Of a DNA stretch of 64,000 bases, positions 2,465 to 64,000 are shown piece by piece; the stretch's first letter is position 1; the number at the start of each line of letters is the position of its first letter. This DNA comes from Torpedo marmorata (taxonomy: Eukaryota): positions 120,714,001 to 120,778,000 of the forward strand of contig OZ360220.1 of assembly GCA_977017645.1 (NCBI GenBank), in the 5' to 3' direction. A model generated the notes under the pieces. That model was not told where the DNA came from and made no database searches. It saw only the letters and a program-made list of their open reading frames with translations. The position numbers and the translations under genes are program-made.

Positions 2465-2844
2465 TGTAGCCGAATGCTACGAAGAAACACACACACGCAG
2501 TGTGGAAGGTTAAGCTGTCTGCTTTATTGAGGCTGGAAATGCTTATTTTATACAATTGGAGTTCCCGCCATTTGGTTGATTGGTTGACATCAGCCGCATG
2601 AATAACAATATCGGGCAGGAACGTTCTTGCATATGAATACCCTTCTTCCCCAGCCTGGTATTGATTTGTTAGCTGGGCAGCTTGGCCAGCGCCATTTTAG
2701 GGCTGCTGGTCTTGTACTGCTCCAACTTTCAACCGCACTGGTTCGCTATGCTAAGGGGCGCGTTACAGTGTGTTATGCCGCTGTTTACTACCACGCGCGT
2801 CGCGCGATGTGCCGGCTCGATCTCCGCGGTGGCTGGCCACCACA
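2465..2844 (-). repeat. 3' LTR (380 bp) of CsRn1-like element 1
   Basis: Direct repeat of 6583-7075 once the 113-bp insertion+TSD is removed (493-113=380). Confidence 0.95.
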
Positions 2845-5800
2845 TGACCCCCCCCCAGAACCGGCACTACAGTTCATAGTGTCTGTGGATGTAGTCCCCA
2901 ATGTCTTTGGTGGTCTGCCTCTGCGCCGAGGTGCTGGCTTCTCCATGGGTTGTATCGGGTCCATGTGTGCCGGCTTGAGCTTGTCTGCGGTGAAGACCTC
3001 TGGTTTGCCACCGATGTCCAGTTCGAAGGTGGCCCCGTTGTTCTGGATGACTCGGAAGGGGTCTTCGTAGGGCTTCTGTAGCGGTGGATGGTGTGGCCCT
3101 CTGCGTACGAACACATACTCACAGTCTTGGGGTTCTTTAGGGATGTTGAACTTGGCTTGCCCGTGTCTGCAGGGTGGGATCGGAGCCAGGTTACCCACCT
3201 TTTCCCGCAGCCTGTCCAGGAAGGTGGTTGTATCCTCCTGTTGACCTCTGGCCGGTGGGACGAAATCCCCGGGGACCATGAGTGGAGCTCCGTAGACGAG
3301 CTCGGCGGAGGATGTGTGGAGGTCTTCCTTCAGGGCTGTATGAATCTCCAGCAGTGCCCATGGTAGTTTGTCAACCCAGTTGGGGCCCTTGAGTCTGGTC
3401 ATAAGGGCGGCCTTGAGGTGCCTGTGGAAGCGCTCAACCAGCCCGTTAGACTGCGGGTGGTATGCTGTCGTGTGGTGTAGCTGGGCGTCCCACAGGTTGG
3501 CAATGTCGGTCCACAGGCTGGAGGTAAATTGTGCGCCTCTGTCGGAGGTTATGTGGTGTGGTAGCCCGAAACTTGCTACCCAGGACGAGACGAGTGCCTT
3601 GGCGCTGGACCTGGTGGATGTGTCCGCCAGGGGGATTGCTTCTGGCCACCGGGTGAAATGGTCGACCACCGTGAACAGGTAGCGGAAACCCTGTGAGACT
3701 GGTAAGGGTCCCACTATGTCCATGTGAATGTGGTCAAACCTTCGCTCCGTTGGCTCGAAAGGCTGCGGGGGGACCTTGATGTGCCGCTGTACCTTGGCTG
3801 CTTGGCACTGTGTGCATGTCTTGGCTCACCCGCTGACTTGTTTCCGCAATCCATGCCACGCGTACTTCCTGGCCACCAACCGGACCGTGGTCCTGATTGA
3901 TGGATGTGCCAGCCCGTGGATGGAGTCGAAAACTCGTCGCCTCCATGCCGTTGGGACGATAGGTCGAACCTGCCCGGTGGCCACGTCGCACAGAAGGGTA
4001 GTGTTACCTGTGCCGACTGGGATGTCCTGAAGCTACAGCCCTGTGACAGCGGTCCTGTACTGAGGCATCTCGTCGTCCTGATGCTGTGCCTCCGCCAGTG
4101 CCACAAAATCCAGTCCGTTAGCCAGAGAGTGGATGCTCTGTCTCGACAAGGTGTCCGCGACCATGTTGTCTTTTCCTGTGATGTGTCTTACGTCGGTGGT
4201 GTACTCCGAGATGTTAGTCAAGTGTCTCTGCTGGCGGGCTGACCAGGGATCGGAGATCTTGGCCAGGGCGAACGACAGTGGCTTGTGGTCCGTGAAAGCT
4301 CTTCCCTCTTCGAAGTACCGGAAGTAGCGGATGGCTAAGTACAGCGCCAGTAGCTCTCTGTCGAAAGCGCTGTACTTTAGCTCAGGGGGCCACAGATGTT
4401 TGCTGAAGAAAGCTAGTGGACACCAACTTCCTTCTATCTGCTGCTCCAGAACTCTACCAATCGCCGTTCCTGAGGCATCGACCGTGAGGGCTGTGGGTGC
4501 GTCTGACCTGGGGTGGGCCAGGAGTGCGGCATTAGCCAGGGCTTCCTTCGTTTCCATGAACACTCGTGCGGAGTCATCGTCCCAGGTCAAGTCCTTCGGG
4601 CGCATGGTTCGAGCAGCTGCGTGGATGAATCTGCGATAAAAGTTGACCATCCCCACGAACCCCTGCAGTCCTTTGGTCGTACTGGGCCTCAGGAAGTTGC
4701 GGATAGCCTCCACCTTGCTGGGTAGTGGCGTGGCACCTCATTTGGTAATCCTGTGGCCCAGGAAGTCAATCGTGCTCAGCTCGAACTGGCAGTTAGCCAG
4801 GTTGATAGTAAGGCCGAAATTACGTAGGCGACTGTAGAGGCTTCGGAGTTGTTGTAGATGTTCCTGCCGGGTTCTGCTCGCCACCAGGATATTGTCTAAG
4901 TAGACGAAGGTGCCGTCCAGGTCTCGGCCCACCGCGTCCATCAGTTACTGGAAGGTCTGTGCCACGTTCTTGAGCCTGAATGGCATCCTCAGGAACTCGA
5001 ACAGCCCGAATGGAGTGATGATGGCCGTCTTGGGGATGTCATCAGGTTGCACCGCGATTTGGTGGTACCCTCACACCAAGTCCACTTTGGAGAAGATTGT
5101 CGCTCCGTGCAGGTTTGCCGCAAAGTCCTGGATATGCGGCACGGGGTAGCGATCTGGAGTGGTGGCCTCGTTAAGCTGGTGGTAGTCGCTGCACAGTCTC
5201 CAGCCCCCAGATGCTTTGGACACCATGTGCAGGGGAGAAGCCCATGGACTGTCCGACCGCCGAACGATGCCTAACTCCTCCTCCTTGACCAGTTGAAGCT
5301 TCTCCGGGGTAAGTCGTCTCGCCCTTGCGTGGAGAGGTGGACCCTTGGTAAGTATGTGATGCCTGATGCCGTGTCGGAGCACCTCCACGATGAACTGAGG
5401 GGAAAGGATTGCCGGGAACTCAGCCAGCACTTTGGAAAACTCATCGTCCAAGCTGTGGATGGAGTCCAGGTGCAGTGCCGGGAGCACGGCGCCCCTCAGT
5501 GCGATGGTTTGGAAAGTTTCCGCGTGCACGACTCTTGCTCTTGAGGTCCACTAGGAGGCTGTGGGCCTGCAGGAAGTCCGCTCCGAGGAGTGGCTGTTCC
5601 ATTGCTGCCAGCGTGAACTCCCACAAGAAGTGACTGCCTCTGAACTGCAGCTCGGCCCTACGCTTGCCATAGGTCCGTATACTGCTGTTGTTGGCAGCCC
5701 TCAACGTGGGGCCCGCTTGCCTGCATCTAGTGTCCAAACCTGTCGGAGCATCACGCTGACCTCCGCTCCTGTATCTACCAAGAATCGTCAACCGGAAAGG

Positions 5801-6541
5801 CGATCCCATACATACAGGAGGCTCCCTTGATGGCCAGCCGCCGTGGCCATCAGCGACGACTGGCCTTGTCGTTTCCTTGGAACTCGCAAGGTGACTGGCA
5901 TCGACAGGCCTCAGAGCCCCATCTTTGGTGGTAGAAGCACCATCTCTCCTTGGACTCGTCCCTGCCTCTTGTCTGCTGCTCCTTTCCAGGGCCTACCTTG
6001 GTCTGGTTGCGAGACTTTGTGACGAGCCTCACGGTAGCCGAGCATTCTGTTTCTGCTTCTACAGAATATCTGCCTGTGCTGCGACTTTCCGGTGGTTGCT
6101 GAAATCCGCGTCAGCCAGGAGCAGATGGATGTCCTCGGGCAGCTGCTCCAAGAACGCCTGCTCGAACATGACGCTGGGCTCGTGGTCTCCCAGGAGGGCT
6201 AGCATCTCGTTCATGAGCGCTGACGGGGATTTGTCCCCTAGCCCATCCAGTTGGAGCAGCCATGCCCCTCTCTCTCGCCGCGAGAGCCCGTAGGTCTCAG
6301 TCAATAGCTCTTTGAAGGCAGTGTAAGTGCCTTCCGATGGTGGCCTCTGGATGAAGTTGGCCACCCTGTCTGCAGTCTCTGGATCCAGGGCGCTGACCAC
6401 ATGGTAGTACCGTGTGGTCTCAGCTGTGATGCCCCGAAGCTGGAACTGAGCCTCAGCCTGGTCGAACCACAGGCCGGGTCGAACTGTCCAGAAGGTCGGG
6501 AGCTTGAGGCCGACTGCGCTGATCGCTGCTTCGCTATCCAT
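2788..6541 (-). pseudogene. Disrupted gag and pol of CsRn1-like element 1
   Basis: ORF pieces 6059..6541 (gag LKLPTFW), 5071..5529 (SPWASPLHMV), 4738..4941 (YLDNILV), 4033..4713 (RNase H, VDASG), 2788..3723 (integrase core, DIVGPLP/SDRG/NGLVERFH). Confidence 0.92.
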
Positions 6542-6582
6542 CGCTGGGTTTAGATGCCGTCTAAACCATCAGGGTCACCAAT

Positions 6583-7075
6583 TGTAGCCGACTGCTACGA
6601 AGAAGCACACACACGCAGTGTGGAAGGTTAAGCTCTCTGCTTTATTGAGGCTGGAAATGCTTCTTTTATACAGTTGGAATTCCCGCCGTTTGGTTGATTG
6701 GTTGACATCAGCCGCATGAATACTTTGATGAAGGGCTCAAGCCTGAAACGTCGGTTATGTATTTCTACCTTTGCTACATAAAAGACACTGTTTGACCTGC
6801 TGAGTTCTCCAGCTTTTGTGTTTTTTGCATGAATAACATTAGCAGGCGGGAACGTTCTTGCATATGAACACCCTTCTTCCCCAGCCTGGTATTGATCTAT
6901 TAGCTGGGCAGCTTGGCCAGGGCCATTTTAGGGCTGCTGGTCTTGTACTGCTCCAGCTTTCAACTGCACCGGTTCGCTATGCTAAGGGTCGCGTTACAGC
7001 GTGTTATGCCGCTGTTTACTACCGCGCACGCCGCGCGATGTGCCGGCTCGATCTCCGCGATGGCGGGCCGCCACA
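6583..7075 (-). repeat. 5' LTR of CsRn1-like element 1, with nested insertion
   Basis: Direct repeat of 2465-2844; adjacent to the PBS. Confidence 0.95.
6723..6826 (+). mobile_element. 104-bp hammerhead-bearing Penelope-derived insertion in the LTR
   Basis: Absent from the partner LTR; 9-bp TSD GCATGAATA (6714-6722, 6827-6835). Confidence 0.9.
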
Positions 7076-12463: not shown

Positions 12464-12559
12464 CTGTAAGTGATCTTACAAAAGTTTATAAAATTAAGGA
12501 GAGTATTTTAATTTTATATATATACACAGGTGTGTGTGTATATATATATATTAATATAT

Positions 12560-12850
12560 ATAAAATTAAAATACTCTCCTTAATTTTGTAAACTTTGGTA
12601 AGATCTCTCTTCAGCCTCCTATGTTAGCGAAAGAATAAATCCATCCTATCCAATCTCTCCTTCTGAATACAGCCCTCCATCCATTCCAGCAATATCCTAG
12701 CGAATCTCTTCTGCCGTCTGTCCATTTCCACCACAATCCTCCTGCAGTGCGATGACCAGAACGTTGCACGTTACTCCAACTGCAGTCTAACCAATGTTTT
12801 GTACAACTGCAGCACGATGTTCCAACTCAATGTCTTGGCTTGAAAGCAAG
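12560..12850 (-). mobile_element. CR1/L2-type LINE fragment, probably continuing left of the gap to ~12040
   Basis: Minus strand reads like the CR1 ORF2 C-terminus (...LYKTLVRLQLE*RATFWSSHCRRI...LKRDLTKVYKI); boundaries approximate. Confidence 0.6.
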
Positions 12851-18099: not shown

Positions 18100-19325
18100 A
18101 ATCCTACAGGAGTCCTTCACTCACTCCATGGATTTCATCCATTTATCCCACTGCTCAGGAAAGGCAGCCAATATACTGAAGGACTCATCATACCTGAGCA
18201 CATTCTCTTCTCCCTCCTCCCAATGGGGAGAAGGCTCAAGGGTGTGAAGGAATGCACCAACAAGCTTAAAGGCAGCTTTTCTCCACAGCCATCAGGCTCT
18301 GAATGAACCCACAACAGAGCTCTCATGCTGCCCTTGAACCCACAACAGAGCTCTCATGCTGCCCTTGAACCTACAACAGAGCTCTCATGCTGCCCTTGAA
18401 CCTACAACAGAGCTCTCATGCTGCCCTTGAACCCACAACAGAGCTCTCATGCTGCCCTTGAACCTACAACAGAGCTCTCATGCTACCCTTGAACCCACAA
18501 CAGAGCTCTCATGCTGCCCTTGAACCCACAACAGAGCTCTCATGCTGCCCTTGAACCCACAACAGAGCTCTCATGCTGCCCTTGAACCTACAACAGAGCT
18601 CTCATGCTGCCCTTGAACCACAACAGAGCTCTCATGCTGCCCTTGAACCCACAACAGAGCTCTCATGCTGCCCTTGAACCTACAACAGAGCTCTCATGCT
18701 GCCCTTGAACCACAACAGAGCTCTCATGCTGCCCTTGAACCCACAACAGAGCTCTCATGCTGCCCTTGAACCTACAACAGAGCTCTCATGCTGCCCTTGA
18801 ACCACAACAGAGCTCTCATGCTGCCCTTGAACCCACAACAGAGCTCTCATGCTGCCCTTGAACCTACAACAGAGCTCTCATGCTGCCCTTGAACCACAAC
18901 AGAGCTCTCATGCTGCCCTTGAACCCACAACAGAGCTCTCATGCTGCCCTTGAACCTACAACAGAGCTCTCATGCTGCCCTTGAACCACAACAGAGCTCT
19001 CATGCTGCCCTTGAACCCACAACAGAGCTCTCATGCTGCCCTTGAACCTACAACAGAGCTCTCATGCTGCCCTTGAACCACAACAGAGCTCTCATGCTGC
19101 CCTTGAACCCACAACAGAGCTCTCATGCTGCCCTTGAACCTACAACAGAGCTCTCATGCTGCCCTTGATTGGTACTAATTGATTTTTTTTTTTGTTCATT
19201 GTAAATCCATACTCTGCAAATTGTGCTCTTCCACTTTGTATGTCTGCATGAGCTAACCTGTTGGACTGCTAGACGAAGAACCCTTTTCTCTGCATGAGGT
19301 ATAATGTGACAAATAAACTGGACCG
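18100..19325 (+). mobile_element. Rex1/Babar LINE 3' end with an expanded minisatellite at the ORF end
   Basis: RKAANILKDSSY...gcagctttttctccacagccatcaggctc (ORF C-terminus); 3' UTR resumes after the array and ends gacaaataaact. Confidence 0.6.
18304..19168. repeat. Minisatellite, 28 copies of a 30-31 bp unit (TGAACCCACAACAGAGCTCTCATGCTGCCCT)
   Basis: Head-to-tail copies with no spacers; three unit variants counted by eye. Confidence 0.97.
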
Positions 19326-40100: not shown

Positions 40101-40165
40101 CTAGAAATTGGTAAAGCCCTCATTGAGTTTGAAAATCTCTCCTATTCCTTCAGTGCATTACCTAC

Positions 40166-40313
40166 CTATGCCATAACCATCTTTGCAGAGCAACCTGATG
40201 TGTGTGCTCAGGTGATGTGGCGGTGCACACTCTCCCTTCATTGAGCTGCAGATCTGGAGTGAGCCGTTCCAGGTTCCGTCCTTGCGGCAGCGAATTATGT
40301 TGTTCGTTGGTTC
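40166..40313 (-). CDS. PAPPA: PAPPA internal exon (CCP4/CCP5)
   Basis: attccag|GAA...ATA G|gtaggt; 148 nt; EPTNNIIRCRKDGTWNGSLQICSSMKGECAPPHHLSTHIRLLCKDGYGI(G). Confidence 0.93.
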
Positions 40314-42607: not shown

Positions 42608-43032
42608 TATGCTCCCAAATGGATCTCCGCAGTGGGACCGCTACATCGTAAAGTTAACCTCAAAGTCTTGTCTGAGATGTCATTTTGAGCCACTGGAAAT
42701 AAAATTATTCCTTTGACCGGGTCATCCTCAAAGCTACTGATAAAAAAATCATCCCTCATTAACCACTTCTCCATGAACTGGCACCCATCTGCACTAAAAA
42801 AAATGTTTGCATTGCACGTTAGAAAGTCTCAGACAGTGATGTGAGTCAGTCTGTTGAGAGAAATCCTCATAAAACAAGCAAAAAAAACTTGTTAAATTTT
42901 TGTGAGGTAAAATTAGAAAGGAAGTGTTCCTTTCTCCAAAAGGCAGTAATGTTTCGCCTTTACAGTTTTCCTACTTAAAATCTAATTTTCTAACTTTCCA
43001 CACATAAAGTGTTTGCAATTCTTGTTACTTAC

Positions 43033-43204
43033 AGTCTGATTGCTGGCATCACTGCAGTTTATCCAGCAGGCACTGTTGAACTGGAAGCCATTTGTACAAT
43101 GGTAAAGCCCATGAAATTTTGCTGGGACTGCCTCACACATGACAGGAGCACATATTCCTGGCTGCCAGCTCCCGTCCTCTGTGCATTTTCTCTTGAAAGT
43201 CCGT
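43033..43204 (-). CDS. PAPPA: PAPPA internal exon (CCP3/CCP4)
   Basis: ttttcaag|A CGG...CAG ACT|gtaagt; 172 nt; hand translation RTFKRKCTEDGSWQPGICAPVMCEAVPAKFHGLYHCTNGFQFNSACWINCSDASNQT; this frame is not in the ORF track. Confidence 0.93.
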
Positions 43205-43446
43205 CTTGAAAATTAAAATCAGGTAAATGGTCACATTGAAGATTTGGCCCTTTCAAAACCTCTTAATTAACCTCACAAAAAAAAAGTTTCAAACAATTCA
43301 CTTTCAAATGTGTTTTCTCACAGAATAACAGCATATTCAGAACGTAATCCACAAAAGTGCTGGAGAAACTCAGCAGGTCACACAGCATCGATAGGAAATA
43401 AAGGGTAACCAACGTTTCAGGCCTGAACCCTCCATCAAGGGTCATG

Positions 43447-44126
43447 GTTAAGTTCTTGGGAGTCACTATCTCACAGGATCTTTCCTGGACCCAACACACT
43501 AATGGCATCATGAAGAAAGCACGTCAGTGCCTCAACTTCCTCAGGAGTTTGCGGAGGTTTGGTATGACATCGGAAACCTTGGCAAATTTCTTAAAATGTG
43601 TCGTGGAAAGTGTGTTGACCAGGTGCATCACGGTCTGGTATAGGGACATCAATACCCATGAGCGGAAAGCTCTGAAAAAGGTAGTGGACACAACCCAGGA
43701 CATCACAGGCAAAACCCTCCCCACCATCGAGAACAGCTGCAGGGAACGTTGCCGTTGGAGAGCAGCAGCAATCAAGAAGGATTCACATCGTCCAGCACAC
43801 GCTCTGTTCTCGCTGCTGCCATCAGGAAAGAGGTATAGGTGCCACAAGACTCGCACCACTGGGTTCAGGAACAGCTGTTACCCCTCCACCATCAGACTCC
43901 TCAACAACAAACTCAATCAGAGACTCTTACTTTTGCACTTTATTGATTTTTTTTCTCTCTGTATTGCGCAGTCAGTTGGTTTACTTTTATTTATTTGCTT
44001 ACATGTTTCCGTTGAGTACGGTTTTTTTTGCATTACCAATAAGTGGTAATTCTGCCTCGCCCACAGGAAAAAGAATCTCAGGGTTGTGTATGATTGTGTG
44101 TACTCTGACAATAAATCTGAAATCTG
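43447..44126 (+). mobile_element. Rex1/Babar LINE 3' fragment, preceded by a Penelope-like piece (~43345-43443, minus)
   Basis: KFLGVTISQDLSWTQHTN...LFSLLPSGKRYR...STIRLLN; tail gacaataaatctgaaatctg. Confidence 0.88.
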
Positions 44127-44382
44127 TATGCTGCTTTGAAGATATTCCCAGGCTCTTCATTTAGGAGAGGGATGGAGGGGACCCTGAGAATGTTCGTACT
44201 GACCAAGAGAAGAATGTTGTGTGAAACCCATAGAATAATACTGTAGATTTGAGGGGGGTTTTGAAAAGTAAGGAGAGTAATGGCAATACTGAACTAAGCT
44301 TACAGAGTTCAGCTGCAACTGAGGGAAGAAAGAAGGACGTGAGAGGTAGAGGCTGAGTTGAGAAAAATGTTGTAAATTAGTA

Positions 44383-44882
44383 CAGGTTGTACCTCTTTAA
44401 TCGGTGACCTTGGGGCCTGGCCATTGCCGGACCACAGAAAATGCCGGAAAACAGAAATTGACCCCTAAGGGAACCCCCTATGTAAACATATCAAAGGTAG
44501 AACAAAGCTTAAAACAGGAAATAATACTGTGAGGCGGCACGGTTAGCGTAGCGGTTAGCGCAACGCCTTTACAGCACCAGCGATCGGGACCGGGGTTCAA
44601 GCATTGTACACACCAATTTATAATTTGATTGAAGAATGCAGAGATAACATGAGTATTTATAAAGGAGATGGCAAACCATATTTGCAATATATACTTATAA
44701 CTAAGTGGGCAGCACGGTTAGCATAGCGGTTAGTGCAACTCCTTTACAGCGCCAACAATCGGGACCGGGGTTCGATTCCCGCGCTGTCTGTAAGGAGTTT
44801 GTACTAACGGCGGCAGATTCAAACGTGCCGGACCATGGGAGTTGCCGGACCACAGAGCGCCGGATAAGAGAGGTACAACCTG
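44383..44882. mobile_element. Tc1/pogo-type MITE containing two SINE heads
   Basis: Perfect 14-bp TIR CAGGTTGTACCTCT / AGAGGTACAACCTG with TA flanks. Confidence 0.8.
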
Positions 44883-47800
44883 TATAAGTTCAAGGGTTAG
44901 CAAATTGTGTGCAGTTCTTGCCCTTAACATGGTGAAACCAATGAGACCAGATTTTGAAAGGAATCAGCACAGCTGTGCAGCTGGTTGTCCTACTGTCTCA
45001 CAGCTTTGGCAGATCGGGTTCAAATCTGACCTCTGGTGCCATTTGTGTGGGGTTTGCACGATCTCTCTTTGACCTCATGGGTTTCCTTTGGAGGCTGCAG
45101 TTTCCTCCCACATGTCAAAGACGTGGAGGTTTGTCTGGTTAATTGGGCACTGTAAATTGCTCCTGGTGTGTAGGTGAGTGGCAGAATCAGCGTGGAGTTG
45201 ATGGGAATGTGGGGAGAATAAAGTGGGTTTCCTTGGGATTGCTGCAAATGAGTGCTATGTGGTTGACGAGCACTTAGTGGGCCCGTCATGTTTCCATGCA
45301 GAATGGCTTCATGACTCTCCCATGCATGGTGTTGCACAGTGAGTGAATTCTGTCCCCAAGTGGCTGAGAAGTGTGGAATGTAGGAAGTATGATGAGGTTC
45401 TGGGTTGAGGTTTGGGTGAATTTCCTTCAACGGGGAGACAACAGTAAGCCTGGGCTTCAACATAATAAGAATACATCTTGCCAAGATTATATTACAACCT
45501 TTCTTGCAAACTGCGTTCACATTTTTGAATAACATGTCCTCTGGATCTTTGCATTTTTTAAACCAGAATTTTAATCAGCATTTTCAAGTATTGAATAGAA
45601 ATAGATGAAAGTCCACAATGATTGTATGGTTTAAAACTGAACAATTTAAATTGAAATTTATGCTTTCTGTTGATGAAATATTTTGGCAGAACTATTGTCA
45701 CATTTTAGAGTAGGATGTAAATACTGAATCAAATTACAGTCCTAAAGCAGAATTCTCGGTGAAATAAGAGGTCAGTAGAGATATTATGACAATATTATGC
45801 AAAATATTATTGCTGTCAATTAGTGTGCATCAGCAGACTTGCATTGTTGCGTTTCACTCTTCTATCGTTTGTTTATTTTTCAATGATACATTTAAACTTG
45901 GTGTAACTCCGGTTTAAAATGGTATTCTTCCTTAGTTTATGCAACAAATCCAGCTCCCCTCTAAAATGTGGCAAAAGTGCCAAGGATTGTTTCCTTTCTT
46001 GTCAAATCTAATGAGCATGGATCCTGACAGAAAGTGGACCTGGCTGACAAATGCTTGATTGGGCATCCTAGTCAGTTGTTTCCAAAGGGCAGCTATTGGA
46101 TAATGAATGGAATTGATTTCCAACAGGGTGTCCAACTCTAAACTGAAGGTAGTAAGAAGTGCATTCAGCTCATCATTATTTTTTAATCCTGCTGAACCAT
46201 CTGCGTGATGCTTTAGATTGTTTTCCTTCAGTTTGTACAATGGAAAGATCAACTATGCCATTATAAAGTTACAATGAAATATAAGATCTTGGACTAAATG
46301 AAAATTTGGTGTTTCAACCCATTGTAATCTTTCATAACATCTCAGCAGGGGTTGCCCTGAAGGAACTGATATATCCACCTCTCCTCACCCACCATAGTTT
46401 CTTTGACATAAGACAGTGTAAACATTGTAGAGTTTGTGTAACACGGTGACAAAAGCCCCAAATGCAAGATCATTTTTGTTTTCAAACTTAACAGAAATGG
46501 CTAAATAAATGTACGTCATCATTCTAAATTGTATATTCAGCAGAACTGGACCCATTAAGGAGGACATCTTGATTGTGTACACCCATTTCCAAAGATTAGG
46601 GTTCACTTATTCAAAACTGCAGAAAAATAAATATTTCTCTCACATTCTACCACTCTCAATTTTCATCTTTGCAGACGGGTATGAATGTACACTTCAGTTC
46701 ATGCATAGGAATTAAAATTTAGGTAATTTAAAAAGTAATCATTCTTAATTTTTTTTAAAAATTAGATGTACAGCGCAGTAACAGGCCCTTCCGGCCCATG
46801 AGCCTGTGCTGCCCAATTACACCCAATTAACCTCCAACCCTGTAGATTTTGAAGGATGGGAGGATACCAGAGCACCCGGCGAAAACCCACACAGCCACGG
46901 GGAGAACGTACAAACTCCTTGCAGACAGTGCCGGATTGGAACCCAGGTTGAAATATCTGTCTGTTGCTCTATTCCCAGAAATCCTGTGGAGTAAATGTTG
47001 TGACTTTCTATTCCTCCTAGTGGTCTACCAGCCTCCTTTATGGAAAGGATAAACATTTTGGAGAAACGATGTAGATGCAAAATCATTTGATGACAAACAT
47101 CAATGTATGGTCGCAGCGTCACAGAGTCTTGGAGCACATAACAGGCCCTTTGGCTCACCACATCAATGCTGACCACCAAGTGCTTAGCTATCTTAATCCT
47201 AACTAAATAAAATTTGTTTTCTTGAGTTTTTCTGGTTTGAAGAGGGATCGTTGGCCAATTTTAAAGGTTGGTTTCTCATTGTCCATTCTGAACAGGGTGT
47301 TGATAAAACAATACTTTGTGCCCCAAAGGCAGTTAGAATTGATTATTTGTTTTCAAAATATTGAATGCTATAGTCAAAGAGATGGAAAAATAAAATTGTA
47401 CATCAGTGCAGGTGGTGGTGGGGAGGGCAAGGGGGTGGTAATGGAGGGAATGGGTTTTGATTTAAGGTAATCTATCAGTTTCATTACAAACATACATTTG
47501 ATTAAATATGCATGAAGTTTCTTAAGTGCTCGCCACCACTAAAAGTCAGTGCAAAACAGCTGCCAGTAGACAGTCAGCTCCTGGAGGATTCAGTACATTG
47601 TGCAGCAATGCTATTAGCATGCTGAATTAACTTTAATAATTTTAAACAATGGGAATAAGTATTTCATGGGCTTTACCATTGTACAGAATTTGTGTGGAGC
47701 GATTGGTTGGGAAATGTGGAAATGTTTTCGCTGCCTCTCTATGTAGCTAGACATTGTAACAATCTCACAGCTCTCCTCAGACTAATGACTGATATTAATT

Positions 47801-48501
47801 AACACAGAATTTAGCATCAAAGAAGTTTGTGGTGAATGCACAAGCCTAATAAGGTAATGTCATTGGAGTCTGGCATCTAGCTGCAAAAAACAGTGTGATT
47901 TCCCTGTAATAGTTTTAACATTACAACTCTAGGCAGAGCAAGGAAATATTTTTCTGCATTCTTGTGGTGCAGCTTTAGAGGAAAGCCCTAATTATTTGTT
48001 AGTTCATAACTCCAACACCTTTAACCAGTTTCTGAGCTCGTTATTAGATATAAACACTATCACCAGGGATCCACTTCGTAGATATAAAAAAATTAATATA
48101 ATTATGCAACAGAGGTCAATCACATATGGAATACAAAGTTCATCTTGGGTTGTTGCACTTAAAGGTTAAGAGGGTATCACCAGCCTTTTATATCGCCTCT
48201 TCAGGCTATTTTTCATCATTGGAATTGAAGGCAAAAAAAAAATCAGTCTTGAGCGCCAAGATGATTAACCAGAGGCCATTTTGCATGATCTCCCCATACA
48301 TATTTTATATCCCGTGATGGCTTTGCGAGTTTGTCTTCACTAGTCTCATTAGAAACACTTAATCATGTTGCTGCATGAAGAGCACCACACACAGTATGCA
48401 CACATGCACAATCGACGACACACAAGCATCTGCATATTCACCATCTCACATGTACACATACACACATACCTACAAATGCATGTCACAATGGTTTCACTTA
48501 C

Positions 48502-48712
48502 TTCCTGATCTTTCTTGAAACATTGGGGACGTAGTATCCTGGCCTGCACTTGTATTTGCATGCGGCCCCAACTTTGTGCCCGTCTTGTTGACAATGCAAG
48601 CTCTGAAGCATGGCATTGGGCACAGGAGGAGGTGCGAGGCACAGCAGTTCACAGAGTGCTTCAGGGAAAGACCACAGTCCATCGTCTAGGCAGGTCAGAG
48701 TGTTATTGGTCC
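48502..48712 (-). CDS. PAPPA: PAPPA internal exon (CCP2/CCP3)
   Basis: ttctgcag|GG ACC...AGG AA|gtaagt; 211 nt; (G)TNNTLTCLDDGLWSFPEALCELLCLAPPPVPNAMLQSLHCQQDGHKVGAACKYKCRPGYYVPNVSRKIR(K); phases 1 and 2 match both neighbours. Confidence 0.95.
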
Positions 48713-51114
48713 CTGCAGAACAGTATACCACATTAGTCCAGATGGAAGACTTGGTTTTGGCATAGTCCAAAACCTTCATTGACAAGAAACTAAAGCAACC
48801 TTGTTGGAATTGCTGGCACATGAGTTTGGAAAGCAAATTGTTCACATCTCCCCAGAATTGAGTATCCTGTACACGCTCTTACAAACCACAACTAAACACT
48901 GTTTTATAGCACAAAATATTTTTAAAGACATTTACTTACACAAACTCTATTCCATTTTCTACCCTTGAACCTCAGGCTGTTTATTTTTGTTGGCAGAACC
49001 TTCCTACAACTTTCTTAAAGTGACTCATGATTAAAAAAAACTATTATTACTGCTCTAGGCTGACTGGTTCCAAGAAGTAACTTGTCGGCTTGACGCATTT
49101 GGCTCTTCACAGACAGGAGTATAAAATGGGTGGATGTGGGGTAGGAAAGGGGGCAGGAGGGGAAACTTTTACTTAACATACTTTTATCAGCAAGTTAAAT
49201 GGGATTTTACGATTCCAAGGAACAAGTTAAATGTTCCATTCGCACGGTGAAGAACCATCACATCATTGCTGTGAGAATGTGATTGTCGGAACATCGTTCT
49301 TAATTCCCCATTCTGCATGTGGGCCTTTGATCTCCTGGTAATATTCTGAATTTGTTTTCCAATCTCTGCCACTGCAGCTGATTAATTAAGAAGCAAAGCA
49401 CTGCAGATGTAGGAACGTTTTATTCCTTCACTCTCTCTTCACTTGCCTCATTTGCCTTTTCACTCCTCTCTCAGCTTATGATATTCTGCCTGGTTTGCAC
49501 AATTCGCTTAAGACGTGTCACTTCCCTCCTTTTTCTCTTTCTTCATCTTATCTGCCTTTTTTGGGAACTAGGGAACTTGAACTTGAGTTCCTTTCCCTTC
49601 CTCATTTGTGGGAACATTCCTATCCTGTACCCGAAACATCTCCTCTTGAAAAGTCATTGACCATTCTTTCATCGATTTGGCTCCACGTTGATGTACTGAG
49701 ATCCCTTCTCATTCCATTAACATTAACCCACCTCCAGTTTGTCAATTCTACATTGGGTTTCTCCTTGCCCACCCCCATTTATTTAAACTTTTTGTCCTGA
49801 TGATTGATGCTGCCCAAGTGTTCTCCCAAAAACATGTGGCCAACTTGGCTCACTTTGCTCCCCCAGATACAAGACCAGCAAATCCTCTTTCCTTATCAAG
49901 TGAAGAACATCCATCATCATACAGTCATAGAGTTGCAGAGCAGAGAAACAGGCCCCTTGGCCCAACTCAATCAATGCTAGCAAAGGATGTTCTCTTGCAG
50001 ACATTTCAGAATGTCCACCCATCTTGTTTCTTTGCTCCAGCAATTTTGCAGTAAACAGTGGATAACTGAAATTACCCACTCTACAGTGCTTGTGCATATT
50101 TCTGTCACATCTTTGCAGAATTGATCCACGCTAATCATTTTCCAGGCCAGGAGGCAATTTCATCTCATCAAATGAAAATATTGCAAACTGCTATTGATAT
50201 GAAAGTAAAATTGTTGAAGTCGAGATTACTCAGGAGATGAGACATCATCTGAGGAGAGATCTGAGTAAATCTTTCAAAATCTCAAAGCAAAATCCTGCAA
50301 ACTATTTGTAATTGCATCACATTCTGATGAACATATATTGATCTGAAACATTAACTCTGCTTGCCTCTCGACAGATGGCATTTGGTATCACCAAAAATTT
50401 CTGTTTTCAGCTTCATTTTTCACCAGATAGTGCACATATTTTCAACTTGGAAGTTGAGGTTGGTTTGACAATTGGAGATGTCATGGCTGAGACGTGGTTT
50501 GGTGAGTTAACAATTTCAAGGGTGATGAAGCTAACTGGGACCATTCAACTTGTATTCAAAATAATTGGCACAGGTGTCTGGTGGGACAGAATTATCATAC
50601 CCCTTGGTTCTTATCACTGATCTGTCAGTTCCCAAATCTGCAAACTAACTGATGGTATTTCCTGTCATTCTGTTGATAGCCAATAAATTATTATGAAAAC
50701 AGGTTTTGAATATATGTTGCACTAGCTGTTGTTCATTTCATCCTTTTGGTGGCACACTCCTGCTTTGAGCTGTTGCTTTATTAGCTGACTGATCTTGGCC
50801 AGCCTGCTATTTACCCATTGCCTGTTTCTGCAGTAGAGTTTTGTGATTTCAAGATTATCTGCTTTGCCCTCTTGCTCCTGACCCACAAAGTTCTGTGCAA
50901 GCAAACAACACCTTGCGGGGAGTATCAAAAAGCTTCCAGGAAATCTAAACCAAAACAGGAAAATGCTAGAATTACTCCATGGGTCAAACTGAAGCTGTGG
51001 GAAGAGAAACCGTTAAGATTTCAGGTCGAAGACCCTTCATCAGTCCTTGGTTTTGCCTCCTTCCTAGTTCTGACGAGAGATCTTTCCACTAATTTTAACC
51101 TCGTTCCCCTCACA

Positions 51115-58063: not shown

Positions 58064-61000
58064 CCCAAATACACCAATTAACCTACAATCCCCGTGAGTT
58101 TTTGAAGGGTGGGAAGAAACCGGAGCACCCGGAGGAAACCCACGCAGACACGGGGAGAACGTACAAACTCCTTACAGGCAGCGCCAGATTCAAACCCGTG
58201 TCGCTGGCGCTGTAATAGTGTTGCGCTAACCACCACATTTGTCTAGTTTGTGACATTACCAACCTGGGAAAAAGGATCTGATCACCTACCCTGTCTATGC
58301 CTTTCATAATTCAAAAATTTGTTCGTCAATAATATGAATGTTGTCTTACACCTACCCAGCAGGAATAGAAACATGAGGATTGAATCATCCATGATTGGAA
58401 TAAAAGGAAAGTAACATGAAGCGAGACTATAAACGGTAAACTTTTCCCTTCTTCTCCACCTTATCTACCTGTGTTGCAACTATCACAGCACACAACTTTT
58501 CCATTGAGGAATGGAGATGGCATCTTTCAGGAATTTGACACCAGCACATTTACAATTGTAAGGTTCGGACTTGCTGTATAGTTCAATGACAAAGCATGGG
58601 TGGTTCACTGCAAGGAGGAAATTCAACACTTCAAGTTTGAAACGGCTCGGCACAAACTGTTCATTTGGAGAAATTGACAAAAGAGAAAAAGAACAATTTC
58701 TTTTGCATTTCTCATAATGTGAGAGTTTACTGGCAAGGCCCTTCCTAAATGCCCTGAAGAAGGCAGTGGTGAGCCTCTGTCTTAAACCTCTGCAAATCCT
58801 TTTGGTGAAGGCATTCCCTCAGATCTCCTTCAGGACTTCCTAATTTAGATCCAATGATGATGAAGTCAGGATGATGTGTGTCCTGGAGGGAATTTTAAGT
58901 GGTTGTTTTTCCAAATGCCTGCTGCCTGCTCGGGAATTTTTTGGAAAATTAAGACATTCATATAATGTCTGCACAATGCGTTTTATCTGTTTTGATTTTT
59001 TTTTAAAAAACACTCTTTGTTTGGGAAAATTCAAATCACAAAATATGTTTCCATGCTGACTGTGCCGAAGAAAGCAAACTGCCGCTAGTTTGTGCTCAAG
59101 TCACATCTTGACTCTTCACTTACTATAGATGCTGCGTGACTTGCTCCAGCACTTTTGTGTATTGATAGAAGCAGTTTTTCAGGTTCTGCCTTCCCTCACT
59201 CCTCAACCCTTCTCTTCCCAATTGATGAGCCCATCAATAACCCCAAAAGACTAGAAGTTACACAAGAACTGAAAGGCTTTTATTAGCAAAAGAATGGAGC
59301 TACATTCGTGCTGATGATCTGTCCCGGACTGGGGGAGGAGCAGTGGCACAATGGCCTTTATTCAAGGGGATCTGTGGGAGGAGCCACCGGGACAGTCAGC
59401 AGGGGCATGTCCAGACTTATCACCCAGCCCACAATCCATACACAGTGGTTTACCACATTCACCCCTCCTTTTTAAAAGAGTCCAGCGGGGTGAAGTGTAT
59501 AACAATATTTACAAGAGATTAAAATTACAAATCGAGTCGATCAGGCGGTCGAGTCCGCCGCTGTGATCGGCGCAGTACTTGTGGTGATAGCGGTGATGGG
59601 GCAGGTGGCGGAGCTACCTCCTGCCTGATCTGGGGTACCGGCACGTCTGGCGAAACCTCAGATGAATATGCTGGTGCGTGTGGTGTCGTGTTTGAATTGG
59701 GTGGTGCCTCTTGTGTGTCCTTAATGGTAGGTAAGGGGGTAACCGTAACTACGGGGTGTTCGAGGGCAGCGGCGGGTTCCAGTGCTCCTGCGGGCGCCAG
59801 GTCCCGGATGGAGACCGTGTCTTCCCGCCCATGAGGAAAAACCACGTAGGCGTACTGGGGGTTCGCGTGTAATAATTGGACCCTCTCGACCATCGGGCCG
59901 TATTTATTGCTCCTGACATGTTTCCGGAGCAGCACTGGCCCTGAGGACGTCAGCCATGCTGGTAGGGTAGTCCCGGTGGTCGACTTCCTGGGGAAGGAAA
60001 AGAGTCTCTCATGGGGTGTAGCATTGGTGGATGTACATAGCAGGGATCGGATAGAGTGGAGTGCCTCGGGAAGGACTTCTTGCCAGTGGGAGACTGGTAA
60101 TCCCTTAGACCTGAGGGCTAAGAGTGTGGCTTTCCAGATCGTGGCGTTCTCCCTCTCCACTTGTCCATTACCCCGTGGGTTATAGCTCGTGGTCCTGCTA
60201 GTCGCGATACCCTTGGCCAGCAGATATTGTCGCAGCTCGTCACTCATAAATGAGGACCCTCGGTCGCTATGGATATAGCAGGGGTATCCAAACAACGTGA
60301 AGAGTTTGCGGAGGGCCTTTATGACTGAGGTGGTCGTGGTATTGGGGCAGGGAATGGCGAAAGGGAACCGCGAGTACTCATCAATAACGTTGAGGAAGTA
60401 CACATTGCGGTCGGTGGAGGGAAGGGGGCCCTTAAAGTCGACGCTGAGTCGCTCAAATGGGCGGGTAGCTTTTATTAACTGCGCCTTATCAGGAAGGTAG
60501 AAGTGCGGTTTGCACTCTGCGCAGACTTGGCAGCTGCTGGTCATCGTCCTGACCTCTTCCAGGGAGTACAGTAGATTACGGGCTTTCACAAAGTGAAAAA
60601 GCCTGGTGACTCCGGGGTGGCAGAGGTCACAGTGGAGGGCATATAACCGGTTGATCTGTGCGCTAGCGCACGTCCCCCGGGATAGAGCGTCGGAGGGCTC
60701 ATTGAGCTTCCCGGGCCGGTACATTATATCGTAGTTGTAGGTGGAGAGTTCGATTCTCCACCTCAGGATTTTATCATTTTTGATTTTACCCCGCTGCTGG
60801 TTGCTGAACAGGAATGCGACTGAGCGTTGGTCAGTCAGCAGGGTGAACCTTGTTCTGGCGAGATAGTGCCTCCAGTGCCTGATAGCTTCCACTATGGCTT
60901 GGGCCTCTTTCTCCACTGCTGAGTGCCGAATTTCTGGGCCTTGAAGGGTATGGGAGAAGAACGCCACCGGTCTTCACGCCTGGTTGAGGGTAGCAGCCAG

Positions 61001-61918
61001 TGCGAAGTCGGACGCGTCACTCTCTACCTGGAAAGGAGTGGACTCTTCCACCGCGTGCATTGCTGCTCTGGCAATGTCCCCTTTTATGAGGCTGAAAGCC
61101 TCACGTGCCTCCGTTGCAAGGGGAAAAGTGGTGGACTTGACAAGGGTGCGGGCCTTGTCCGCATAATTAGGGACCCATTGAGCATAGTAAGAAAAGAAGC
61201 CCAAGCACCTTTTGAGGGCTTTGAGGGTGTGGGGAAGCGGTAGTTCCAACAGGGGGCGCATGCGGTCGGGGTCGGGGCCGATGACCCCGTTCTCCACAAC
61301 ACACCCCAGGATAGCGAGTCGGGTGGTTCCGAACACGCACTTATCCTTGTTATAGGTTAGGTTAAGCGCTTTGGCCGCCTGGAGGAACTTCCGAAGATTG
61401 TTATCGTGGTCCTGGCGGTCGTGACCGCAGATGGTGATGTTATCTAAGTATGGAAAAGTGGCCTTTAATTTGTATTGGTCCACCATCCTGTCCATCTTCC
61501 TCTGGAAGACGGATACCCCATTTGTGACCCCAAAGGGAACGTGCAGGAAATTATAGAGTCTGCCGTCCGCCTCGAAGGCGGTGTAGGGGCGGTCCTCCCG
61601 GGGAATGGGGAGCTGGTGGTAGGCAGATTTGAGGTCTATGGTGGAGAAGAGCTTGTACTGAGCTATCTGGTTTACCATATCTGCAATGCGTGGTAGAGGG
61701 TACGCGCAAGCTGCGTGAACCTATTGACGGTCTGACTATAATCTACCACCATCCTGTTTTTGTCCCCGTTCTTGACGACAACCACCTGGGCCCTCCAGGG
61801 ACTTGTGCTCGCCTCGATGATCCCTTCCCCAAGTAACCGCTGCACCTCTGACTTAATGAATGCCCTGTCCCCTGCGCTATATCTCCTGCTTTTGGTTGCC
61901 ACAGGTTTACAATCAGGG

Positions 61919-62081
61919 ACGCCTGCCGGCATTTTCTCATACTTTGATGAAGGGCTCAAGCCCGAAACGTCGGTTATGTATTTCTACCTTTGCTACATAA
62001 AAGACACTGTTTGACCTGCTGAGTTCTCCAGCTTTTGTGTTTTTTACTTCATCCACGGTGTCTACAGATTTTCGTGTTTAC
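61919..62081 (+). mobile_element. 163-bp hammerhead-bearing Penelope-derived insertion in pol
   Basis: 13-bp TSD TTTACAATCAGGG (61906-61918, 62082-62094); removing it restores LTPDCKPVATKSRR. Confidence 0.92.
61938..61978 (+). ncRNA. Minimal type-I hammerhead ribozyme motif (U3 variant), best-preserved copy
   Basis: catact-TTGATGA-a-GGGC tcaa GCCC-GAAAC-GTC-ggttatg: stem I, core, stem II, palindromic ACGT in place of stem III, GUC triplet; activity untested. Confidence 0.65.
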
Positions 62082-64000
62082 TTTACAATCAGGGGTCAGG
62101 TTGGCGAATAGCGATGGGGGCGGGATCTTGAGGGTGGATAGACCGCAAGTAGTGTGGGGTGACAAAATATTCTTGCTGTTTTGAAGGAATTGGTGATTAC
62201 CGACAGTAATCGGTGGGAGGGGCCCGTCATACTCCATAGTCACACTTTGGAGGTGACTCTGGAAGTCGAGCACTTGTAGTACAGGTGCACACAGTCGGGG
62301 CATGACCAATAGCGCGAAGTCCCAGTATTCCATGCCCTGTACCACTATCGTCGCTACACAACCCCCCCGGATGTCTGTTGTGTGCGACCCGGAAGCCATG
62401 GCAACCCTCTGGCTTACCGGCTGTATCGTGAGGCCGCATCGCTGTACCATGTCAGGGTGGATGAAGCTCTCTGTGCTGCCTGTGTCGAACAGGCAGTTTG
62501 TCCTGTGTCCCTCGACCAGAATGTCCATCATCGACCTCGCGAGTTGGTGGGATGCACTCTGGTCGAGTGTAACTGACGCCAACGTTGGGTCGCTGTCTTG
62601 ATCCGACGTTGCGATGGAGTGCCCGCTGTCCCGGGATAGTGGCACCCTGTGTCGGCTCGTCGGCGTGGAACAAAATGGCCGCTCCCATGACTAGCACGTG
62701 TTGGCGGCGGGTAGGTAAGATGGCGGCGACGGAAGTGACGAAACACAAGATGGCCACCCCCATACCTCGCACGTGTTGGCTGCGGCGGCGGGTAGGTAAG
62801 ATGGCGGAGACGGAAGTGACGACACACAAGATGGCCGCCCCCGAGTCTCGCACGCGGCGCTGCTCGATCCCGCTCGCGGTTTAGATCAACAGACCTTAGC
62901 GAAGTGGCCTTTCTTCCCGCAGCTGGAGCAGGTCGCTTCTCGGGCCGGGCAACGTTTCCCGGGGTGCTTCTCAAGCCTGCAGAAATAGCATTTCTCGGGT
63001 TCGCGGCTGATGGCCGCAGTGGTCGATTCACTGGCATGGTGGCGGGTCGGCGGCATTCACGGGGCCTGCTGGAGATCGCGCACCTGGATAGCATCCGAGT
63101 TCTGTAGCGCAGCCTCCAGCGTGTCGGCCAGTTCGATCGCGTAACGGAAGGTAAGGTCAGCTTGTTCCAGCAGCCGCTGGCGCACATACACTGAACTGGT
63201 CCCCGTAACGAAAGCGTCTCTCACTAGGAGCTCTGCATGCTGTTCAGCCGTCAGTCCCCGACAGTCGCACGCCCGCACGAGTGTTTGTAGGGCCCGTACG
63301 AACTCCGCGCTCGACTCCCCGGGCCGCTGCTGCCGCGTCGCTAGCCTGTGTCTTGCGTACACGGTATTCACAGGCCGTATGTACTGTCTTTTAAGGGTAT
63401 TCATCGTGTCCTCATAAGTCTGTAGATCTCGGATCATAGAGTAGACTCGTGGGCTTACCCTGGAGAGGAGGACCTTGCGTTTTGCTGCGTCTTCTTGCAC
63501 TTTGATCTTCTCCAGGAACGATTCAAAACAGACTAGCCAGAGTTCAAAGACATTGCCAGCGTCCGGTGTTTGTGGGTCAATGTCCAGTTTGTCTGGTCTC
63601 AAGATGTTCTCCATGTTTACAATTTTGCCAATAAAATTGATGAGCCCATCAATAACCCCAAAAGACTAGAAGTTACACAAGAACTGAAAGGCTTTTATTA
63701 GCAAAAGAATGGAGCTACATTCGTGCTGATGATCTGTCCCGGACTGGGGGAGGAGCAGTGGCACAATGGCCTTTATTCAAGGGGATCTGTGGGAGGAGCC
63801 ACCGGGACAGTCAGCAGAGGCATGTCCAGACTTATCACCCAGCCCACAATCCATACACAGTGGTTTACCACACCAATAACTTGAGTTTGACCATTAACTT
63901 GATATTTGTAGATGCTCCCTGACTTTCTCCGTTATGTTACATAAGACCATAAGATATTCAGATTCAAATTTATTGTCAGAGTACATACCTGTCATCACAT

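What the first reader, a model, noticed from the sequence alone, without database searches (positions are those of the whole stretch)
43093..47685. Perfect 25-nt intronic complement of a PAPPA coding exon, 4.5 kb away
Seen: plus-strand 47661-47685 (ATTTCATGGGCTTTACCATTGTACA) is the exact reverse complement of plus-strand 43093-43117, which lies inside exon 43033-43204 (codons for K-FHGLYHCT). Three more bases pair after a 1-nt bulge. Neither site sits in a repeat I can recognise. Rough chance expectation is 64000^2/4^25, about 4e-6. In the minus-strand pre-mRNA the complement lies ~820 nt after the preceding donor, so pairing would loop out the exon's 3' splice site. Inference: either an editing-complementary sequence for ADAR (possible recodings CAU H>R, UAC Y>C, ACA T>A in CCP4), a long-range duplex controlling skipping of a 172-nt frameshifting exon, or a neutral inverted templated insertion from DNA repair.
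Basis: partly seen in the sequence, partly recalled or inferred. Interest (0 to 1): 0.72.

Follow-up and report, generated by a model that had tools for sequence, protein, structure and literature searches.

The report
Recent backwards exon copy in intron
A 25-base piece of a PAPP-A coding exon sits backwards in the intron 4.5 kb before it in this cartilaginous fish but is missing from two relatives, so it is likely a recent DNA-copying accident rather than an evolved RNA-editing or splicing switch.

Summary
The match is real: 47661-47685 is the exact reverse complement of 43093-43117 in PAPPA exon 17, with only these two copies in 6.2 Gb. A near-identical public contig carries it unchanged. 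Contigs of two relatives align across the site but lack it: both have an 11-nt core where the window has 17 nt, between shared 4-nt ends. One templated replacement, primed by microhomology, explains this; the relatives' allele has no nearby template. Perfect identity needs no selection at about 1.5% branch divergence (P about 0.7). Two-copy inverted pairs 0.7-4.8 kb apart also turned up in 1.2 Mb of arbitrary sequence (3 of 3 checked), though none as short and sharp. A duplex could still form in the pre-mRNA (predicted), and editing and exon skipping were not tested. The scan noted similar cases before on other DNA (elephant-shark PRAG1; GSE1 in this genome). New member of a known mutation class, with a longer jump than genome-wide surveys search. 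Interest 0.2.

The parts
43033..43204 (-). PAPPA coding exon 17 of 22 (172 nt; end of one sushi/CCP module and start of the next; the number CCP4 is recalled)
43093..43117 (-). Template arm inside the exon (last base of the Lys codon, then F-H-G-L-Y-H-C-T), exon nt 88-112
43205..48501 (-). Intron 16, which holds the copy
47661..47685 (+). Intronic 25-nt copy; antisense to the exon in the pre-mRNA
47665..47681 (+). Lineage-specific 17-nt core; organisms B and C have 11 nt here (three deletions and two shared substitutions relative to the window)
47661..47664 (+). Left 4-nt microhomology (ATTT), present in B and C
47682..47689 (+). Right microhomology: 4 nt exact (TACA), 7 of 8 with the one-base bulge; unchanged in B and C
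48502..48712 (-). PAPPA exon 16 (211 nt), upstream donor
40152..40313 (-). PAPPA exon 18 (lower end approximate, from tblastn)

Best explanation
The intronic 25-mer is an exact inverted copy of part of PAPPA exon 17 that two relatives lack, and it likely arose in one germline template-switch or break-repair event in this lineage and likely has no selected function. Inferred mechanism: a free 3' DNA end at about 47682-47689 (or at 47661-47664 on the other strand) paired by 4-7 bases with single-stranded exon-17 DNA 4.5 kb away, copied 17 new bases, and returned to its own template at the second 4-nt microhomology, replacing 11 ancestral bases. Shown: the match, its uniqueness, its absence in B and C, the shared ends. 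Inferred: direction of change, single event, polymerase and pathway, neutrality. Predicted only: an RNA duplex in the pre-mRNA.
For:: X2 (organism B) and X3 (organism C) each span the site in one contig and share five differences inside 17 nt (left out 2 at 47665, 3 at 47668, 1 at 47681; 47674 T>C; 47676 C>A); in the table's other rows for this stretch they share one change (47631). Five independent events in 17 nt at 1.5% divergence have P about 7e-6, at 5% about 2e-3. The window allele has a 25-nt perfect template; the B and C alleles have longest matches of 11-13 nt in the window and in 664 kb, i.e. chance level. B is closer to the window (74 other letters in 1.6 kb) than C is (132 in 1.8 kb), which puts the root on C's branch under a rough clock. 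25 unchanged bases are expected with P 0.69 at 1.5% and 0.83 at 0.73%. Only 1 of 22 exon hits of this gene has an inverted match above 16 nt in 664 kb. In 1.2 Mb of arbitrary sequence, 3 of 3 checked inverted pairs (0.7, 2.1, 4.8 kb apart) have only two copies genome-wide. Junction lengths fit MMB-TI microhomology (2-12 bp, mean 3.7; PMC8421209).
Against: Only two relatives cover the site; X12 and X10 gave no cover, so there is no distant outgroup and the root rests on distances from a truncated table (40 rows shown, 145 hidden). The 4.5-kb jump is far beyond the 100-nt search range of PMC7954356 and PMC8421209. None of the 8 inverted pairs in the arbitrary 1.2 Mb is a short perfect copy with unrelated flanks more than 2 kb apart, so this exact shape is rarer than 'common'. 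The donor is a coding exon, about 2% of the unique sequence of the region (5.2 of 267 kb), although the finding was picked for that reason. The duplex is predicted to be stable enough to form. No RNA was examined.
Confidence: 0.75

Rival explanations
1. Same one-step replacement, but the template was the gene's own transcript (reverse transcription at a break by a repair polymerase) rather than DNA.
For: The donor is exonic. The longer primer (7 of 8 bases, right side) belongs to the direction in which the template has mRNA sense (inference). RNA-templated repair and RNA-derived patches are described (PMC12065846 passages; PMC5110952 parts 1-2).
Against: The copied part lies inside one exon, so there is no exon-exon junction to mark RNA; the non-template DNA strand gives the same sequence. 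The comparable 4.8-kb pair on C30 shows no sign of coding (no Pfam match above cut-off in 7 frames; no homologue for 2 frames).
Confidence: 0.08
2. A newly born editing-complementary sequence: however it arose, the 25-bp duplex now recruits ADAR and recodes H, Y or T codons of the sushi module to a degree that matters.
For: Predicted duplex -43.0 kcal/mol against -12.4 and -9.6 for the B and C alleles; still about -12 after rough opening (8.2 + 9.6) and loop (about 13) costs. PMC8897444 searches for such sequences within 10 kb and describes a primate ASNS exon-intron duplex that became edited.
Against: Absent in B and C. 25 + 3 pairs fall short of that paper's 30-nt threshold, there is no A:C mismatch, and its perfect 50-bp ASNS duplex was barely edited until one appeared. 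None of the 5 cartilaginous-fish proteins that show the motif, nor human PAPP-A, encodes R, C or A at the proposed positions (P0006 did not show the motif).
Confidence: 0.07
3. A long-range duplex that loops out the exon-17 acceptor and promotes skipping of a frameshifting exon.
For: Geometry fits: the arms enclose the branch region and acceptor, and 172 nt is not a multiple of three.
Against: Not conserved. The exonic arm starts 88 nt inside the exon, so neither splice site is paired. Skipping would likely only destroy the message.
Confidence: 0.03
4. The 25-mer is older and was lost once in a common ancestor of B and C.
For: Three taxa give an unrooted tree; B and C share the same allele.
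Against: It needs the window's lineage (about 1.5-1.8% to the node) to evolve at least three times more slowly than C (about 5.5%), and an untemplated 11-nt patch.
Confidence: 0.05
5. Chance match or assembly error.
For: About 0.5 such matches are expected over the whole scan (1.9e-6 per window, times some 250,000 windows). X1 may share the assembly's source.
Against: X1 is a different haplotype with the identical 25-mer; the differences to B and C fall exactly inside the match.
Confidence: 0.02

Closest known systems
Four-point template-switch mutations (PMC5453318 and PMC7954356; passages read)
   Same: A mutation cluster explained by one reverse-complement fragment copied from another template and a return; net length gain; fragment length in range (median 12, maximum 128 nt).
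   Different: Those surveys require the template within 100 nt and exclude long-range switches by design; here it is 4.5 kb away.
MMB-TI, templated insertions linked to microhomology-mediated break-induced replication (PMC8421209; passages and section 10 part 1 read)
   Same: Inverted template, insertion with replacement, 2-12 bp microhomology or microhomeology with one gap, germline variants of 25 bp or more.
   Different: Their tool searches 100 bp; no further switch or rearrangement is seen here.
Polymerase-theta templated insertions (PMC7165422; passages read)
   Same: 3-30 bp templated patch, short microhomologies, inverted class exists.
   Different: Defined as locally templated, and first synthesis tracts are rarely over 10 bp; here 17-25 nt from 4.5 kb.
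Class 2 templated sequence insertion polymorphisms (PMC5110952; parts 1-2 of 4 read)
   Same: Patch from a distant intact donor, microdeletion and microhomology, no target-site duplication or poly(A).
   Different: The experimental insertions there are 73-414 bp and from distant regions without chromosomal preference; this one is 25 nt from the same gene.
Intronic editing-complementary sequences, e.g. primate ASNS (PMC8897444; passages and section 12 read)
   Same: Intronic antisense match to a coding exon within 10 kb; lineage-restricted origin is possible.
   Different: Shorter than 30 nt, no A:C mismatch, not shared with the nearest sampled relatives, editing not shown.

Membership tests
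Templated insertion / template-switch mutation | Derived cluster of differences against relatives at an orthologous site | tested here: met
   2 of 2 covering relatives lack it; five shared differences in 17 nt
Templated insertion / template-switch mutation | Cluster explained perfectly by one reverse-complement template, donor intact | tested here: met
   25 of 25; exon intact
Templated insertion / template-switch mutation | Microhomology at both junctions in the ancestral allele | tested here: met
   4 nt left; 4 nt right, 7 of 8 with one bulge
Templated insertion / template-switch mutation | Direction of change fixed by a distant outgroup | tested here: inconclusive
   Only distances among three lineages and the lack of a template for the B/C allele
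Short-range template switch / classical MMB-TI as surveyed | Template within 100 nt | tested here: not met
   4543 nt between arms; works like one, is not a member by that definition
Polymerase-theta templated insertion | Dependence on POLQ | not testable with these tools
   A fixed historical event
Editing-complementary sequence | Antisense match of 30 nt or more at 70% or more within 10 kb (criterion of PMC8897444) | tested here: not met
   25 nt plus 3 after a bulge; a near miss
Editing-complementary sequence | Conservation or compensatory change across species | tested here: not met
   Absent in B and C; the relatives' exon DNA was not read
Editing-complementary sequence | A-to-I editing in the paired exon | not tested
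   No RNA of this organism was laid
Long-range splicing duplex | Exon skipping that depends on the pairing | not tested
   No RNA, no minigene
Transposon terminal inverted repeat or dispersed repeat | Multiple genomic copies | tested here: not met
   Two copies only; exon and intron neighbourhood single-copy

The most novel reading that the evidence does not exclude
A one-step birth of an exon-intron RNA duplex: a single repair event, possibly copying the gene's own transcript, wrote a ready-made 25-bp partner for a PAPP-A exon into the upstream intron, and this lineage now edits or skips that exon. It would show how editing-complementary sequences can arise at once and give a dated before/after pair in living species.
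Probability: 0.08. Interest if true: 0.65.

Novelty: new member of a known kind. Interest (0 to 1): 0.2.

Why it matters
As it most likely stands it is a clean, base-resolved example of a germline template switch over 4.5 kb in a cartilaginous fish, a distance that the genome-wide surveys read here leave out for lack of statistical power. It also warns that a perfect exon-intron complement can be a young mutation scar. If RNA showed editing or skipping in this lineage only, it would be a natural experiment on how RNA regulatory duplexes originate.

Tried and rejected
No RNA holder was listed for 43000-48800; this says nothing on expression or editing. Runs X12 and X10 did not cover the intronic site. 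Rfam on 47200-48500 gave 2 weak hits, both far under their gathering scores. A dispersed repeat or paralogue as source was rejected. The only rival isolated inverted match of 19 nt or more in 664 kb, a 23-mer, is a repeat with 8 exact copies. I looked for a template for the other lineage-specific changes at 47555-47660 within 10 kb: nothing above 10 nt. Five of 9 stem substitutions lie in the 100 nt before the copy (post-hoc P 0.008), but B's own changes also cluster near the site (13 of 21, P 0.006), so I do not count this as an error-prone repair tract. I tested whether the C30 pair also has an exonic donor: no support. Literature on PAPPA editing: search (41 papers, 15 listed); the two listed papers with the word were an author name and an m6A passage; PMC8897444 has no occurrence in its main text or in 5 searched supplements, 2 files not searched, and these may hold the site lists. 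I recall that Abyzov et al. 2015 report micro-insertion templates at 20-60 bp and 2-6 kb from human deletion breakpoints; the paper is not held and searches found no quotation, so this is recalled only. One search returned nothing. PMC9069542, PMC7615360 and PMC4937565 (passages) added nothing decisive.

Full report
Observation. The plus-strand stretch 47661-47685 is the exact reverse complement of 43093-43117. Three more bases pair after a one-base bulge at 47686. The other long exact inverted matches in the window mostly fall within longer repeat pairs or a local hairpin listed; after masking repeats this one is the longest left. A pattern search of the 6.2-Gb assembly finds the 25-mer twice, at these two places, allowing one mismatch. 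The surrounding intron (47400-47900) and the exon are single-copy.

Gene context. The exon 43033-43204 (minus strand, 172 nt, AG/GT) encodes a stretch that matches human pappalysin-1 (E 1.6e-21) better than pappalysin-2 (1.3e-12). Its nearest protein is a sawfish PAPP-A at 89%. tblastn of that protein on 664 kb around the window gives 22 exon-like hits over about 455 kb, which makes this exon 17 and the host intron 16. The exon is the old partner: the motif around F-H-G-x-Y-[HQ]-C-T is present in 5 of the 6 fish proteins returned and in human. Of the 22 exon hits, 1 has an inverted match above 16 nt anywhere in the 664 kb, so the gene has no general system of intronic complements.

Is it more than chance? 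With the window's base composition the expectation is 1.9e-6 per window. Extrapolating the observed tail of isolated 16-18-nt matches gives 1-5e-4 in 664 kb and 2-8e-6 within 5 kb. Over a scan of some 250,000 windows about 0.5 chance cases would be expected, so the number alone does not settle it. The relatives do.

Relatives. Sixteen public runs were listed; five were laid. X1 (organism A) differs from the window by 12 letters and one 10-nt indel over 1.64 kb and is identical across 47590-47770. It may be the assembly's source but is a different haplotype. X2 (organism B; 74 other letters and 64 gap letters in 1.6 kb) and X3 (organism C; 132 and 108 in 1.8 kb) each span the site in one contig. 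Both show the same five differences inside 47665-47681: two, three and one letters left out at 47665, 47668 and 47681, and 47674 T>C, 47676 C>A; C has one more at 47677. X10 and X12 did not cover the site. Read as one event, B and C have an 11-nt core where the window has 17 nt, between a shared ATTT on the left and a shared TACA on the right; the three extra pairing bases are also present in B and C. Five independent changes in 17 nt have P about 7e-6 at 1.5% divergence and 2e-3 at 5%, before asking that they all match the exon.

Direction. From the rows visible for 47200-47835, 9 substitutions are shared by B and C against the window and X1 (1.5%) and 21 are private to B (3.4%) (the table shows 40 rows and hides 145, and I assumed B's rows complete over this stretch). 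C is 7.3% from the window overall. A rough clock puts the root on C's branch, so the window's allele is derived. Independently, the window's allele has a perfect template and the B and C alleles have none (longest matches 11-13 nt). A distant outgroup is missing.

Mechanism (inferred). A nascent or resected 3' end paired with exon 17 by a few bases, copied 17 nt, and came back 11 nt further on. If the growing strand was the minus strand, the primer had 7 of 8 pairs and the template was the exon's sense strand, exposed ahead of a fork or in a transcription bubble, or the transcript itself. If it was the plus strand, the primer had 4 pairs and folded back on its own strand. The sequence cannot choose between these, nor between DNA and RNA, since the copy lies within one exon. 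The anatomy fits the four-point template-switch model (PMC5453318, PMC7954356; passages) and MMB-TI insertions with replacement and microhomeology (PMC8421209; passages and section 10 part 1), except that both surveys look only within 100 nt; PMC5453318 states that long-range switches over thousands of bases are known but outside its model. Polymerase-theta patches (PMC7165422; passages) and class 2 templated insertion polymorphisms (PMC5110952; parts 1-2 of 4) are the other near kin.

Base rate. I took six arbitrary 200-kb stretches (371 kb unique after self-BLAST). They hold 8 inverted pairs more than 100 nt apart whose arms match nothing else in the 1.86 Mb. Three were checked genome-wide and all three have two copies only: 40 nt at 93% 0.7 kb apart, 197 nt at 94% 2.1 kb apart, and 69 nt at 83% with a 27-nt exact core 4.8 kb apart (the DNA search skips common words, and only the last was confirmed by pattern search). 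Three others look like ends of small DNA transposons (recalled resemblance, untested) and two were not checked. So local inverted copying at kilobase range is ordinary in this genome, a few cases per megabase at most. None of the 8 is as short, perfect and sharp-edged as the PAPPA case, which is therefore an uncommon shape of a common process.

Function. Perfect identity needs no selection: 25 bases stay unchanged with P 0.69 over 1.5% and 0.83 over the X1-window distance. The predicted RNA duplex is -43.0 kcal/mol (B and C alleles against the window's exon: -12.4, -9.6); after rough costs for opening both arms and closing a 4.5-kb loop about -12 remains, so pairing in the pre-mRNA is possible. 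It falls just short of the 30-nt criterion for editing-complementary sequences in PMC8897444, has no A:C mismatch, and that paper's perfect 50-bp ASNS duplex was barely edited until such a mismatch arose (passages and section 12). None of the proposed recodings is genome-encoded in the five fish proteins showing the motif or in human. The exonic arm begins 88 nt inside the exon, so no splice site is paired. Editing and skipping were not tested. I found no report of PAPPA recoding in search and reads 72, 73, 76 and 77; two supplementary files of PMC8897444 were not searched and could bear on this.

Earlier notes of the scan describe like cases on other DNA (e1-7931843, e1-9908957). I had reached my reading before looking; the second gave me the MMB-TI paper. 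They are not support.

Verdict. Observation confirmed; a lineage-specific, microhomology-flanked templated replacement from 4.5 kb away, most likely neutral (0.75, or 0.83 counting an RNA template). New member of a known kind. Interest 0.2. The bold reading, a one-step birth of a working editing or splicing duplex, keeps about 0.08.

Noticed in passing
G000:C30:100136230-100136298 (+) and 100140999-100141063 (-); L117/L118: Two-copy inverted pair 4.8 kb apart, 27 nt exact within about 70-100 nt at about 83%; no sign of coding.
   Followed up: partly
G000:C53:30126311-30126350 / 30127060-30127099 and 30008513-30008709 / 30010683-30010876; L176, L164-L165: Two more two-copy inverted pairs, 40 nt at 93% and 197 nt at 94%.
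   Followed up: partly
window 47566-47631: Five substitutions and an apparent 5-nt deletion at 47593 on the window's lineage within 100 nt of the copy; B's changes also cluster here, so the stretch may simply be mutable.
   Followed up: partly
window 47937: A 10-nt stretch present in X1 and X2 is missing in the window: a young deletion or polymorphism.
   Followed up: no
window 12469-12608: Near-perfect local hairpin, 55-nt arms at 95%, 30 nt apart, next to the N stretch.
   Followed up: no
window 18304-19168: Highly homogeneous minisatellite with a unit of about 31 nt.
   Followed up: no
window about 2800-6600 and 59200-63800: Frames that look like LTR-retrotransposon gag/pol (resemblance recalled, not searched); a 183-nt exact direct repeat at 59220 and 63635 suggests a young element.
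   Followed up: no
window 13794 to about 76.7 kb below the window start: The last PAPPA intron appears to be about 90 kb long; the gene spans about 455 kb in 22 exon hits.
   Followed up: no
window 43105-43107 (Leu codon inside the template arm): This residue varies among cartilaginous fishes (F, T, S, V; L here and in human), so exon DNA of close relatives could date the copy.
   Followed up: no
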